A stretch of 64,000 bases of DNA from Eledone cirrhosa (taxonomy: Eukaryota), in assembly GCA_964016885.1 (NCBI GenBank), contig OZ024742.1, forward strand, positions 175,956,001-176,020,000. The letters are read 5' to 3'. Below the pieces are notes generated by a model. It worked only from the letters and a program-made list of their open reading frames with translations. It was not told where the DNA came from and did no database searches. Positions 18,434-61,163 of this stretch are shown here, in pieces. Within the stretch, counting starts at the first letter, position 1. Each line of letters opens with the position of its first letter. Both the position numbers and the translations under genes were made by a program.

Positions 18434-18564
18434 CAGCTTATGGCAACTTCTTTTTCTATCTTTAAGGTTCTTCACCCTATTTTATAAGATATTTTATAGC
18501 ATCTCTGTGCATAAGCACACCATTTTGTGTGTGTATATATATATTTATTAAAATAACAGATTAA

Positions 18565-18615
18565 AGTTTAAGCAAAGAATCGGTGCTTTCATCCTTAACA
18601 GGATCTTCTGAAACT
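18565..18615 (-). ncRNA. Type I hammerhead-like motif with CAGAAGA core in the 3' pLTR (copies at 21671-21720 - and 22063-22113 +)
   Basis: Sense strand: agttt CAGAAGA tcctgttaaggat GAA agca..tgct T aaact, with stems I, II and III intact. Confidence 0.55.
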
Positions 18616-19738
18616 AAAAAGATAAATCTGTGAATGCAGAAGTAAATATTTCGATAAACGTTGCAGCCGAAGGAAGACAGGATAATGATACTTTGGTTCG
18701 TGGAGACGTTCCCTGGCAATGAACGAAAAAAACCCGAAGATAAAACGACATTATTTGGTGTGGCGAGAACAATTACACGCAAAGACAAAACCACATTTAT
18801 GGTATAAATGAAGTCGTGGACTAATATTCTATTTAGGTGGTTCGTGGAGACGTTCCCTGGCAATGAACGAAAAAAGAAGCGAAGATAATACGTCATTATG
18901 TGGATCGGTGAGGACAATTAAATTACACGCAAAGACAAAACTACGTTTATGGTATAAATGAAGTCGTAGAATAAAATTCTATTTAGGAAACCGAATGATT
19001 CTCGGCTTCAGAGTTAAGAATAATGTAAATAAATTACAGAGGCTATTGAAATCAATTATAATTAAATATATACATGCACGCATCCATATACATACACATG
19101 GATACGCAAAAACACCCGTCATGGGTATGCATATACAAGCAAGTACACAAAAACCCACGCAACACCTGTACCCGCACACATACGAACGTATACACAAAAT
19201 GCACATAAAAATATATAAATATATATATATGTGTGTGTGTGTGTGCATGTATACATATAATAATATACACGTATATAAATATACACGCATAAATATGTAT
19301 ATAACACCCCACATATATACCTACAGGTAAATAAACATAACTTCGCTAAACGTACGTCAACCAAAACACAAAGTACACATATACACACACCCTTCATACG
19401 TGCAAACCCGCATACACACACAAACGCAAAATACACGTATACACATAACCATATACACATGTACCAGTATATATAATATAATATATACGCCTATAAAAAA
19501 TACAGGCAAATATTCGTACGAGAAAGTATACATACCATCACAAAACATACAGGTAATATCTACTTACCTATACAAATAAGTAATGGTATAAACATAAAAT
19601 ATACTTAGTTACCACATGAAGACGTAAATTATCCGCGTATTGTTCGTACTATCCGTTAGGGTATAATGCGGGGCTGTAATACAGGAACGTTTTATGCAAT
19701 TTATGTTTACAAGCCGAAGTTGTCTCAGATTTTTTTGT

Positions 19739-21500
19739 TTAAGATGTGGTCATTGGCGTAGAGTAATTCCAGGGCTTCAGCGGAGCAGAGGCCACGTGGT
19801 CTTTTAATTCCGTTAGGATCTCCCAGTCTAACTTATATTGGGTGTGGTTATTTTTTAGACTCCAGATATAAGCTGAAAGTGACGTCATATTCCTTCTTAA
19901 AGTGTTAAGAAAACAATGGGTATGCATGCAAAGATGCTACTTGAATCTATTGGCGGTTAACACTATGTAGACCCTACGGGACGTGGGTGTTTCAACCTTA
20001 CATTTGTAAACACTGTAACTGGAGAGGCATTTCCTGGATAGAGGGCAGCCAACCCGATTCCTACAATTACAGTTAGTACTAGCTACAGGGTTGCACGTGC
20101 TCCTACGGCTAGGTAATTTATCTAAATTTGAAGCAGTGATGTTATGTGTAATGTTAGGAGTCGTAGTGTAAGAAATTTTAATGGTATTTCTGTTAAAAAT
20201 TGTATTATATTTATGTACTTGTGGGAAATGCTTCTTAATAAGGGAGAGAAAGATCTTAGCTAATGGTGTGGCCACCTCCATATTGTATGGTGGGTTATAC
20301 CATATAATGCGTCGGGATCTATTTTTCCTAGGTCTATGCTCATACTCGGTATATGCTACCTTATCGACAAATCCACTCCGAACAAGAGCTTCATTGTAAT
20401 ATGTGGAATGATCGGTGAAAATATGCTCGTTTGTAGATAGACGGGAAAGCCTCAAAGAAACGTTTGTTACCAGGTTCTTGGTTATGCTGGCAGGATGGTT
20501 TGAATGCTTACTTATGTAATTAAGCTTATCATTTGGTTTTCTATACGAGTATGCAAGCCATTCGACAAATTGAGGGTAACGTCGAGGTAATTAACGACCG
20601 AAAGGTTGGCCTCAACTTGTATGGAGAGGTTGAAGCCTTTAAAGAAGGCTGTGAGTTCTTTTCTGAACCTGTTGCAAGCACGTGGGCCGCACTTTGTTAT
20701 GGCCAAAAGACCGTCATCATGGTACAAACCACCGCCCAAGTTGGGGGATTCTTTCTTGATAGAGAAAAGAAGGAAAAGGCTGATAAGATCAGTAACCTCC
20801 GCAGAATTGCTGTCTCCCATAATCTCGTCGAATGGGGTTCTATTAGATTTTTTTAATCCAAATAGAGTCATCGAAATTAATCACTGACTTACGGGCATTG
20901 AGGATGACATTAACTTCGAAATCCTTAACCATCATGGGGGTTTTAGCGAAATTGATAGCTCTAAGAAGTGGTAAAGTGATGGAGGAGTAGTAATTATTGA
21001 TGTCGAATTGGATAAACGGCAATGTTTCTTGTTGCATATGCCATTGAACCAATCAATGCCGCGAAGGAATTGTTCCACAGTGCAAGAGGAGCCAAGCTTC
21101 TAATTTCAGGTATAATTCTATCTAAAATCCTTTTAGTTTTACGATAATCCTTAGTTACATCATTATATAGCAGTTGAGAGTGGGTACTGCGCTCCACTTG
21201 ATATAGATTTCCAGTTTTGTCGGAGTGGACGCGCACGTCATTAGGATCCTTAATAGAACGAATTATATTCTTGAGGTCCTGCTGGAAGGAATTGCTCCTA
21301 TTCCGAAATTTCATACTCCGTATGAGTTCCAAGACATCGTTTTCGAAAGGTAGCAATGCTGTTTGCTGTCCGCTTTTTCCTGGTTATCGAAATAAAAGGC
21401 ACGCCAACGCATCTTTTAATGAACGGGTCTCTTTTCTGTATCAGGAGTTTTAGGTATGTCTTCCTGCTTGGTACGGGTATGTTCTTTGTAGAAATATTTA
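19739..21500 (-). pseudogene. PLE reverse transcriptase plus GIY-YIG endonuclease (frameshifted)
   Basis: DKTGNLY; FIQFDINNYYSSI; FDEIMG..SAEVTDLISLFLL; LYHDDGL; NYLDVTLNL; IIWYNPPY; CNCR..CPL..CL..VYKC..YI; LSAYIWSLK. Confidence 0.92.
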
Positions 21501-58500: not shown

Positions 58501-58959
58501 ACTTTGTTCAGCAAGATTCTATTGTTGAATGCACCACTTTCTACTACCAATCACTTTACAGAGCATATTTAGTGTTTTATAATAGCAGAAACACTAAAGA
58601 GGTTGCCATGCCCTTAACATAATGCAAGAGTCCTCCCGACCCTATATATATATATATTTATATATATATATATATATATATATATATATATATATCAATT
58701 TGTATGATGAATTATTATTATTCATCTGTTGCCTCAGCTGCCTCTCATTTTTCACCTCCTGACTATTTCTCTCTCCCATATCTCTCTCTATCTCTCTCTG
58801 TTTTTCTTTACATACATTTCTGCCTTTTCTCCGTCTTTCTTTCTAACTGTGCTTAACACTAAATATTTATAACATTTCACTACCAAACCAACTTCTCAAA
58901 TGGAAGTTGATCAATATTTATGGTACGTCAAATTTATTTATAAAACTGCTTATATATTG

Positions 58960-59025
58960 TATTTTATCTGAAGAAGGCATGCCATATTTTTAATATGGTA
59001 TCCCTGAAATATGTATAATGAAATA
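58960..59025 (+). ncRNA. Minimal type I hammerhead (family B) in a TA-flanked element at ~58697-59068
   Basis: tattttat CTGAAGA aggcatgccatatt-ttt-aatatggtatccct GAA ATATGTAT A atgaaata. Confidence 0.75.
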
Positions 59026-61163
59026 AATATGGTTTTATAAATATAGTTTCCATTTGTTTAATATCGTATATATATATATATATATATATATACATACACA
59101 TACATAGCTTGTTTCAAGATACAATACGTTTAGCAAGTACTTTTATAGATTTCCCATGTGTATATCTATGTGTATGTTTTTGATAAATATTTAAACAAAA
59201 GCAACTGAAGGGTTGATTACATACTTTTTACTTATAGTTCTTCCTATCTAAGCTTTTCAGTTTTCAATATTGTATTTTTTGTCTTGATTATTGGGTGTCA
59301 GAAATATCAGCCACAATCTAAAGTTACTGTCTTTTCAATTATTCATGGTCATTATTATGGCCAATTCATATCACATAAAGAAATAGCCAATAACCAGTGT
59401 CTTATTACACATCTATCAGTTTATAACAGAATGGTCTTGCCTTTTTGTCATCTTTGACAGAAACCATTTATTTTCTAAGTGAAATGTTTTCACCAAACCT
59501 CAATTTTTTTCCTTCTGTCTATCTATCATCTGCTTATATGAACAGTTAAGTGTTGCTGTAATCAAGGACAGTACTCATTCTGCGACATAAATCACTGTCA
59601 TGGAAAGATTCATTAAATGTTGAGATATGTTTAAGAATGATTCAATATTAAAAGGCAAAAAAGTAAGTGTTTATGGCTTGACTAATAAAGAGAATAGCGT
59701 AGTAATTCTATTAGTAACAAATGAGAGGTTTAGTGAAATATTGCCAATGACAGTCTGTAGATGTATCAAATGATGAAGATGTTAGATAAATTAACTTCAC
59801 ACAGTAAACCATATAAGGAGCATGGTTATTACCATCATTTAATGTGCATCTTTCCAATTAACAATAGCTGGACAGATTGTCAGAGATCGAGTTAGTCCTC
59901 AATCGGAACCACCAATCTCACAATTTACAGGGACGTTTTCATGTCTTTAGCACAAATGAGGAGTCCTCTCTACACTTTGCATGACAAATTACATATGGCT
60001 GGATGGCCTTCCTATCTTCAAACCATTTTATAGAATGTACCGGGTGCATTTAGCATGTCATTAAAACTAGAGAGGTTGCCATGCTCCTGACACAATTGAA
60101 GAGTTCTCTCAATCTATTTTTGGAATGATTTCTACAACTGGAATGCCCTTCTTATCACCAACCACCTTACAAGGTGTTCTGGTTGAGGTTTTGTGGCACC
60201 AACCTACCACTTTGTATTGTTTATTGGGTGTATCCTATGGTACCAGCACTAGATACATTGTTTCATTGTCATCAAATATGGAAGAATCCATTCAAAACCT
60301 ATACTTTTTCCCATCACCAAACTTTCACCTCTGGTCTCATTACCATGCAGCCTCAGACAGCCTGTTTAGCCTCAGACAGCCAGCCTGTTCTTCAATCTAA
60401 AAGAAAATCTTTTGCTCCCAGCAGAGGTAATAATTACTGAAACTATTTTCACCCTGTTTTTATTTTGGCTACTATGCCATATGTACACCCATTTCCACTG
60501 TTGATAAGAGAACACAAGTGCATCCAAGCTAGCTAGCCAAGAGATATATCACTGTCACTTTTACATTTCCATAATAACATTGATTTGAAGGAGATTGGGG
60601 AACAGGAAGGCATATTTTTAATGAAAGGCTGCCTATTATTTTCAAATCATTTAAAAAATAATCAAGAATGTAGAGGGATTTAGTAATACAAGCTGGTGTT
60701 TGGAATGTTACTTAATGATCCTTCAACAAAATTATGATGGAATGATTTAAAACAAATATGCTTCAAAACAAATAGTTTTGTATCATACAACCTTGGAAGG
60801 TTTCAGTTAGGTTGGTGACAAATGTGTCAAATACTTAGCAAAATGAAAATACAGTTTATATTATTGAAGCATATTTTAATATTAAAACAGCTTGAAAATA
60901 ATTGGATGAAGACTATTTAATGGTTTCGTATTGCATCAGAAACTGTCAGTTATGACAGAAAATTGGGGAGATTAATGTTTAATAAAAATAGAAACACAAC
61001 TCCAAGAATTTAGCTGAGAAAATGTGAATGAAAATGCTTGATCTAAGGAAATTTATAAGTAGTTAATCTCAAAACTTGTTTGAAGAATAGAATACAAAGA
61101 TGCAAAGCTACATGCACATTTGAAAGGAGGCACTTATGTAACTCCCATTCCTGGCATAATAAT

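What the first reader, a model, noticed from the sequence alone, without database searches (positions are those of the whole stretch)
18544..59068. Hotspot of about 9 unrelated hammerhead families, nearly all embedded in (TA)n tracts
Seen: about 19 HHR motifs with different stems and flanks, at 18565/21671/22063, 24613/30290/52467, 28521/58960, five in 31.3-33.0 kb, 34969, 39485, 40337/41042, 42517 and 43097. They are interleaved with four distinct GIY-YIG PLEs, and most host elements begin or end at (TA)n. Inference: an ecosystem of autonomous PLEs and non-coding ribozyme parasites targets TA microsatellites. Because these elements also carry TA-rich tracts, each insertion may create new targets, giving a self-amplifying nest.
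Basis: partly seen in the sequence, partly recalled or inferred. Interest (0 to 1): 0.75.

Follow-up and report, generated by a model that had tools for sequence, protein, structure and literature searches.

The report
Penelope ribozyme pile-up in TA repeats
The 19 hammerhead-ribozyme motifs are real and belong to 11 jumping-gene insertions of a known Penelope type that land in TA repeats; this stretch holds about three times the density of a genome estimated to carry several hundred thousand such motifs, and one element carries its own TA array that was later interrupted by two other insertions.

Summary
All 19 motifs (9 families) are present; 13 pass a type I hammerhead descriptor that gives 0.2 hits per shuffled window, and one family shows compensatory helix changes. 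They come from 11 insertions. Six families are terminal repeats of protein-coding Penelope-like elements (five Hydra clade, one CCHH-type); only three (458, 705-716, 659 nt tandems) look non-coding. Genome-wide, 134 of 140 defined 3' ends lie at (TA)n, against 11% for random positions. Back-to-back insertions pair one short and one long fixed end in 79 of 83 cases. The hotspot is modest. Sampling 1.11 Mb gave one motif per 7.2 kb (about 4e5 extrapolated); the interval has 18 per 40 kb, against a mean of 5 and a maximum of 15. Family B's 3' UTR carries a ~1-kb TA/TG array, split here by a family C end and a LINE. So self-supplied targets occur, but they are a minor share of all TA tracts. Hydra elements with hammerheads and (TA)n targeting are published, including an octopus family. 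This scan has noted the same community on other DNA of this genome. Cleavage and expression are untested.

The parts
18544..22228 (-). Insertion A: broken near-full-length Hydra-clade PLE (RT+EN, ~19650-21500) with hammerheads at 18610(-), ~21716(-) and 22068(+, inverted arm); core CAGAAGA (U4>A); ends +26/+117 after the cleavage site
24597..30423 (-). Insertion B: one 5'-truncated Hydra PLE (EN 29732-30154, 3' UTR, terminal repeat with hammerhead 24657-) plus an inverted terminal arm 30166-30423 (hammerhead 30296+); ends +21/+89
   Evidence: (L321 carries the near-identical EN)
25145..29553 (-). B's own TA/TG microsatellite 3' UTR array, in two halves (25145-25663, 28628-29553) separated by foreign insertions
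   Evidence: same array in L059, L061, L321; all 9 other B loci that reach the array edge have the array upstream
25690..28307 (-). 5'-truncated APE-type LINE (844-aa frame, RVT_1 and Exo_endo_phos_2) inside B's array
28295..28627 (+). Insertion C: solo 3' terminal repeat of an autonomous Hydra PLE (hammerhead 28529, palindromic loop III), 3' end in a TA run of B's array
   Evidence: (675-aa frame in L032)
31105..33340 (.). Insertion D: non-coding 458-nt tandem in two back-to-back arms, five identical minimal hammerheads (loop III CTAG), internal (TA)10; ends about +239/+296
33900..36354 (.). Insertion E: inverted Hydra PLE pieces (terminal repeat with hammerhead 35010-, core CCGATGA; ORF N-terminus 33900-34700-; EN tail and UTR 35153-36354+)
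38197..39670 (.). Insertion G: inverted Hydra PLE (EN 38525-39058-, terminal repeat 39055-39670+ with U3-A8 hammerhead at 39489, 6-bp helix III)
   Evidence: (L322)
39921..41343 (+). Insertion F: non-coding 705-716-nt dimer, hammerheads 40341 and 41046 with 9-bp helix II and a ~75-nt insert
42011..42950 (.). Insertion H: non-coding 659-nt tandem family, inverted arms, hammerhead 42521 (loop III CCATGG); ends +274/+378
42963..43258 (+). Insertion I: terminal repeat of a canonical CCHH-type C-terminal-EN PLE; hammerhead-like motif 43103 is marginal
52460..52594 (+). Insertion B': diverged family B end, G12>A, predicted inactive
58765..59066 (+). Insertion C': diverged family C end with intact hammerhead 58968
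23045..45380 (.). Chain of mobile elements separated by TA tracts; 91% matches other loci, against 31-36% in the window's outer parts

Best explanation
The stretch is a dense but not unique pile of 11 Penelope-type insertions whose ends sit in TA microsatellites, and the 19 hammerhead motifs lie in their terminal repeats. Six families are ends of protein-coding PLEs (five Hydra clade, one CCHH-type); three are non-coding tandems, likely copied by the same enzymes. Shown: family identity, 3' ends at TA, two fixed end sites per family, short-plus-long pairing in back-to-back arms, and B's internal array interrupted by two foreign insertions. Inferred: the GIY-YIG domain nicks both strands of an existing (TA)n tract; each nick primes reverse transcription at one of two fixed sites downstream of the hammerhead; the two truncated cDNAs join head to head. 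The tract is split into two tracts that remain targets, so piles grow where TA is long. The hammerheads likely cut tandem precursor RNA, weakly or as dimers (untested).
For: Hydra motifs are present in linked ORFs: RWR, DKT, CxCx5C linker, no CCHH, as defined in Craig et al.. 134 of 140 defined 3' ends at (TA)>=3 against 11%. In background, 83% of 155 motifs have (TA)4 within 150 nt downstream, against 21% of random positions. Tract length beside ends (median 30.5) equals a length-weighted random cut of existing tracts (28, p=0.95). 79 of 83 distinct back-to-back pairs are short+long, including non-coding H (6 of 6) and D (1 of 1). Clan C: 94% of cells paired, 6 pairs with double changes, 0 of 500 shuffles reach its covariation score.
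Against: Clan E shows no significant covariation (1 double change, 124 of 500 shuffles). Six of the 19 motifs fail the descriptor, and folding z-scores are unremarkable. Only one end site was found for F. In insertions E and G one arm does not end at a standard site. Neighbouring hammerheads are more frequent than TA supply alone predicts (32 of 134 against 15.6%, binomial p=0.008, loci not independent), so something beyond passive targeting may act. In the anole Poseidon element both strands used the same start sites, which does not predict strict short+long pairing. An autonomous parent for D, F or H cannot be excluded from the 20-25 loci examined for F and H and the few examined for D.
Confidence: 0.8

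Rival explanations
1. Self-amplifying nest as the main driver: elements import TA tracts, which recruit the next insertions, so piles grow from element-borne targets.
For: B's ~1-kb UTR array holds up to 16 (TA)>=5 runs and is interrupted here by C and a LINE. In L053 another hammerhead family abuts a B array. D carries an internal (TA)10. Element bodies supply 486 of 2944 TA bases in the interval. Neighbour excess is 1.5-fold.
Against: Only 1 of the 11 hammerhead insertions (C) sits in an element-borne array. In 1.11 Mb of background there were 0 hits to B's array flanks, 11 to D's internal tract and 4 to A's, against 3654 TA tracts. 27 of 41 neighbours are tail to tail across a shared tract. 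UTRs of C, E, G and I have at most one (TA)>=5 run.
Confidence: 0.12
2. Regional tolerance: targeting is uniform per TA base, and the pile marks a region where insertions are not removed (gene-poor, low recombination).
For: Other classes also end at these tracts (RTE 3' end at 23936-24040, LINEs, SINEs). Block counts are overdispersed (0-15 per 40 kb). The interval has 8 events on 23 TA loci, against 31 on 334 in the blocks.
Against: The flanks of the pile (1-18.5 kb, and 20 kb left of the window) have no motifs, so the dense zone is only 25-40 kb wide. This can act together with the best explanation.
Confidence: 0.3
3. The TA tracts are made by the telomerase-like RT as tails, not chosen as targets.
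For: Several tracts beside ends are very long (24401-24596, 30424-31187, 41340-42008).
Against: Tract lengths beside 134 ends match a random cut of existing tracts (p=0.95). TA tracts occur every ~430 nt and cover 6% of the sample. Both outer ends of inverted insertions meet TA.
Confidence: 0.05
4. The motifs are chance matches in AT-rich DNA.
For: No Rfam hammerhead among the rows shown; weak folding z-scores; family I is marginal.
Against: 0.2 hits per shuffled window against 14 real hits; recurrent families; compensatory changes in clan C.
Confidence: 0.02

Closest known systems
Hydra clade of EN+ Penelope-like elements, including Hydra-1_Obim (Craig et al. 2021, PMC8557442; read: abstract, sections 6 and 11, passages, supplement rows and sequence excerpts)
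   Same: C-terminal GIY-YIG without CCHH, CxCx5C linker, RWK-type and DKT motifs, hammerhead near the 3' end, (TA)n insertion; an octopus family with (TA)n preference is listed in File S1.
   Different: At least five families in 40 kb; A, B and C are longer than the stated <3 kb because of long UTRs; B carries a ~1-kb microsatellite UTR; tails are 47-130 nt rather than 30-40 bp.
Minimal type I hammerheads of metazoan PLEs (Cervera and de la Pena 2014, PMC4209133; read parts 1-2 of 4)
   Same: Short or palindromic helix III, extra base after A9, U3-A8 variant, many families per genome, mostly in truncated PLEs, opposite-strand pairs 100-700 bp apart.
   Different: Reported totals were thousands (up to ~9,000 in Xenopus); here about 2.6-4.2e5 by extrapolation. 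U4>A core (A) and long helix II inserts (F, G, H) were not in the parts read.
Metazoan non-LTR retrozymes (Cervera and de la Pena 2020, PMC7229834, passages read; Li, Clavereau and Pollet 2026, bioRxiv 10.64898/2026.07.22.740005, part 1 of 5 and passages read)
   Same: Non-coding tandems with a type I hammerhead in each unit, proposed to be non-autonomous PLE derivatives.
   Different: Units of 458-716 nt (reported 150-450), PLE-style minimal cores, TA targeting and two-site inverted ends (D, H). RNA circles are not shown here. Axolotl, the largest count in the passages read, has 126,247 motifs from two families.
Anole Poseidon PAc mechanism (Frangieh et al. 2024, PMC11167929; abstract and passages read)
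   Same: Cuts and extends both strands of AT-rich DNA; two internal RT start sites explain the tail.
   Different: Other clade; no strand difference in start site was seen in vitro, whereas here arms pair short with long in 79 of 83 cases.

Membership tests
Hydra-clade PLE (families A, B, C, E, G) | Single ORF with RT and C-terminal GIY-YIG EN | tested here: met
   675-aa frame in L032 (C); L321 (B) and window A in broken frames; only EN and partial RT seen for E and G. Pfam finds nothing in the L032 and L321 frames.
Hydra-clade PLE (families A, B, C, E, G) | RWK-type motif and DKT in place of DKG | tested here: met
   RWR and DKT in A, B and C; DKT in E's window N-terminus; G not covered.
Hydra-clade PLE (families A, B, C, E, G) | CxCx5C linker; CCHH absent; CxxC and CxH around E and N | tested here: met
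   Linker in all five; CxxC and CxH in B, C, E and G (A's EN end is broken).
Hydra-clade PLE (families A, B, C, E, G) | Hammerhead in the terminal repeat and (TA)n insertion | tested here: met
Hydra-clade PLE (families A, B, C, E, G) | Length generally under 3 kb | tested here: not met
   A ~3.15 kb and C ~3.8 kb between terminal repeats; B longer still with its array. The paper says 'generally', so this is a tendency, not a defining motif.
Hydra-clade PLE (families A, B, C, E, G) | Placement in the Hydra clade of an RT tree | not tested
   No tree built; Hydra-1_Obim compared only by eye from the supplement excerpt.
Hydra-clade PLE (family I) | CCHH absent, DKT present | tested here: not met
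   Family I's ORF has CCHH and DKG, and Pfam GIY-YIG and RVT_1 hits: a canonical PLE of another clade, not assigned further.
Type I (minimal) hammerhead ribozyme | Core CUGANGA/GAAA/UH (or U3-A8) with helices I-III | tested here: met
   13 of 19 motifs pass; six fail; family I marginal.
Type I (minimal) hammerhead ribozyme | Compensatory changes in helices | tested here: inconclusive
   Clear for clan C, not significant for clan E; other clans not counted.
Type I (minimal) hammerhead ribozyme | Site-specific self-cleavage | not testable with these tools
   needs an in vitro assay
Non-LTR retrozyme (D, F, H) | Non-coding tandem with a type I hammerhead per unit | tested here: met
   Tandems in L236, L310, L315-L320 and the window; no PLE ORF at a constant distance.
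Non-LTR retrozyme (D, F, H) | Unit of 150-450 nt with canonical type I fold | tested here: not met
   458, 705-716 and 659 nt with minimal PLE-style cores; filed as retrozyme-like non-autonomous PLE partners.
Non-LTR retrozyme (D, F, H) | Expression as linear and circular monomer RNA | not testable with these tools
   No raw RNA reads were available.
Type-SGC permuted hammerhead | Blocks in S-G-C order with three helices | tested here: not met
   No SGC hit in the window or in 1.11 Mb with my scan; the scan would miss a helix supplied by an extra strand.

The most novel reading that the evidence does not exclude
This genome carries several hundred thousand hammerheads from dozens of Penelope families, more than the largest count in the papers read. 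They spread by a two-headed reaction in which the two target strands always prime at different fixed RNA sites, and non-coding tandems borrow that reaction. At least one family ships its own kilobase TA array, so that each long copy seeds new landing sites for its whole community.
Probability: 0.35. Interest if true: 0.65.

Novelty: new member of a known kind. Interest (0 to 1): 0.36.

Why it matters
The parts are known; the scale and two details are useful. Hydra ORFs escape Pfam and their hammerheads escape Rfam here, so a very large ribozyme-bearing repeat fraction may go unannotated in such genomes. The strict short-plus-long pairing of ends is a testable constraint on how Penelope enzymes finish an insertion. 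Its presence in non-coding tandems supports the proposal that retrozyme-like repeats are moved by Penelope proteins. B's array is a concrete case of an element carrying its own target. The window itself is not a special locus.

Tried and rejected
Rfam scan: only TA-driven microRNA matches in the rows shown. The repeat finder was swamped by TA. The genome search with family D returned nothing, because the tool skips very common words; D was studied from sampled stretches instead. Searches used mis-registered structure strings and are void; searches are the correct ones. Family I rows are void (the reference held a TA tract). One search counted some loci twice. One search used a (TA)3 rule that miscalled H's internal TA as an end. 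One search is the count to use. End calling overshot into tracts and was replaced. Permuted-hammerhead scan: nothing above shuffles. Sequencing runs: no RNA holder listed; contigs laid on F say nothing on expression. Paper searches: Penelope-like, hammerhead, microsatellite, GIY-YIG; hammerhead ribozyme, octopus, Penelope; own target, nested insertion, TA repeats; hammerhead, cephalopod. In their listings I found no genome-wide hammerhead count for a cephalopod and no PLE with a self-carried TA target. A 2026 octopus repeat annotation (PMC13282606, passages) does not contain the word ribozyme. Subscription papers and the bioRxiv supplement were not visible and may bear on this. Eckert et al. 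2023 (PMC10085705) was read as passages only.
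Full report
Setting. The window is G000:C3:175956001-176020000 in a 3.0-Gb animal assembly. It looks cephalopod-like to me from its repeats; that is an inference, not a result. TA tracts occur about every 430 nt and cover 6% of a 1.11-Mb sample.

Are the motifs real? After reading the families in other genomic copies, I widened the descriptor to U4 variants, the U3-A8 core and long helix II. It then passes 13 of the 19 motifs, plus one false hit, against 0.2 hits per shuffled window. 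The descriptor was tuned on this window. Homology to a library from other loci recovers all 19. The six that fail are damaged copies of valid families, except family I (43103), whose fold is marginal in all 20 copies seen. Clan C, collected by homology, keeps 94% of cells paired with six doubly changed pairs, and no shuffle of 500 reaches its covariation score. Clan E is 91% paired but not significant. Rfam showed no hammerhead in 150 of 206 rows, and folding z-scores are unremarkable, as expected for minimal motifs. Cleavage is untested.

What carries them? Genome searches gave 436-3162 first-look candidates per family (lower bounds). Families A, B, C, E and G are terminal repeats of PLEs whose proteins have RWR, DKT, a CxCx5C linker and no CCHH, where the domains are covered. 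These are the Hydra-clade marks of Craig et al.. That paper reports hammerheads and (TA)n insertion for the clade and lists an octopus family. The EN fragments at 29732-30154 and 38525-39058 are nearly identical to the ORFs linked to families B and G elsewhere, so they are inverted arms of the same insertions. Family I belongs to a CCHH-type PLE. D, F and H are tandems of 458, 705-716 and 659 nt with no PLE ORF at a constant distance. They work like non-LTR retrozymes but are longer and have minimal cores. The 19 motifs reduce to 11 insertions; the script's 12 events count B twice.

TA targeting. Of 177 non-self loci, 27 continued into element sequence and 10 had no callable end. Of the other 140, 134 end at (TA)>=3, against 11% of random positions. 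Some queries included a few TA letters; E, F and H did not, and gave 46 of 50. In the unselected background, 83% of 155 motifs have TA within 150 nt downstream, against 21%. Tract lengths fit a random cut of existing tracts (p=0.95), which argues against RT-made tails.

Two fixed ends. Prompted by earlier scan notes, I mapped ends relative to the predicted cleavage site: A +26/+117, B +21/+89, C +49/+135, G +17/+97, E about +45/+175, H +274/+378, D about +239/+296, I +120/+168. F gave one site. Among 83 distinct back-to-back pairs, 79 join one short and one long end; this includes 6 of 6 for non-coding H. Tails and inverted arms are known for PLEs, and two RT start sites with cutting of both strands were shown for an anole element. 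I infer double target-primed synthesis in a palindromic TA tract, with head-to-head joining of the truncated cDNAs.

Is it a hotspot? I sampled 51 10-kb stretches and 15 40-kb blocks at round coordinates, mostly on large chromosomes. The descriptor gave 96 hits in 1.11 Mb, of 35 loop types (0-2 per shuffled 510 kb), and homology gave 155. That extrapolates to about 2.6e5 and 4.2e5 motifs. The interval has 18 motifs, 11 events and 9 families in 40 kb; the blocks average 5.0, 2.9 and 2.3, with maxima of 15, 8 and 7. The negative-binomial tail is 1-2%. The interval was chosen after the fact, the library favours its families, and three blocks are TA-free satellite, so true enrichment is about 3-fold or less. 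Family count per tile follows TA content (rho 0.53). The scan's index shows 1009 of 2155 notes in this genome fitting hammerhead/Penelope/TA; these are unchecked AI notes, cited as context only.

Self-amplifying nest. Family B's 3' UTR holds a TA/TG array of about 1 kb, seen upstream of the same edge in all 9 other B loci that reach it (of 24). In the window this array is in two collinear halves with a family C end and a LINE between them. This is one direct case of an element-borne target. It is not the main source. B's array flanks had no hit in the background sample, D's tract 11 and A's 4, among 3654 tracts. Element bodies supply 486 of 2944 TA bases in the interval. Neighbours of another family lie within 800 nt beyond the tract in 32 of 134 cases, against 15.6% expected, mostly tail to tail. 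Splitting of host tracts and regional tolerance explain this more simply. From 23045 to 45380, 91% of the sequence is repeat, which fits one or a few TA tracts split again and again; empty alleles were not available to test this.

Verdict. The system is Hydra-clade and related PLEs with retrozyme-like partners, a known kind, and the locus is an upper-tail pile. The points worth keeping are the genome-wide load, the short-plus-long pairing and B's target-bearing UTR.

Noticed in passing
genome sample: At least 26 recurrent hammerhead clusters, including several U3-A8 families and long palindromic loops; extrapolated load 2.6-4.2e5, above the axolotl's 126,247.
   Followed up: partly
clan B copies, e.g. 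L319, L220, L040, L309: Many short B copies are truncated and folded back exactly at the 5' edge of the hammerhead core, as if RT stalls at the ribozyme.
   Followed up: no
window 28295-28422: Five inverted repeats of 14-22 nt copied from family C's palindromic loop III region, with a varying number of TA units, at the C/LINE joint.
   Followed up: no
window 33340-33807: Very abundant ~450-nt element between TA tracts (about 38 hits in the fetched loci), no hammerhead; class not determined.
   Followed up: partly
window 23936-24040: 3' end of an RTE-like LINE (label recalled; matches the C-terminus of an ORF in L315) that also ends in TA; the same end follows TA in L072 and L151.
   Followed up: partly
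window 23315-23850, 24040-24400 and 37500-37953: Further low-copy repeats ending in TA, without a hammerhead by my descriptors; two of them gave no match in the scan's notes.
   Followed up: partly
window 36356-37530: Neptune-type PLE scrap (label recalled; EN C-terminus with an inverted duplication); a 621-aa relative lies in L316.
   Followed up: partly
L032, L321: Long Hydra RT frames have no Pfam match at E<=0.05, so these elements would be missed by domain-based annotation.
   Followed up: yes
blocks at C1:420.00, C8:40.00 and C3:185.00 Mb: Three 40-kb blocks are TA-free satellites; the last is built of TTAGGG-like short units in mid-chromosome.
   Followed up: no
L029, L196: A family C end inserted in a family A terminal repeat at a non-TA site, and a family I end joined directly to a family B hammerhead.
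   Followed up: no
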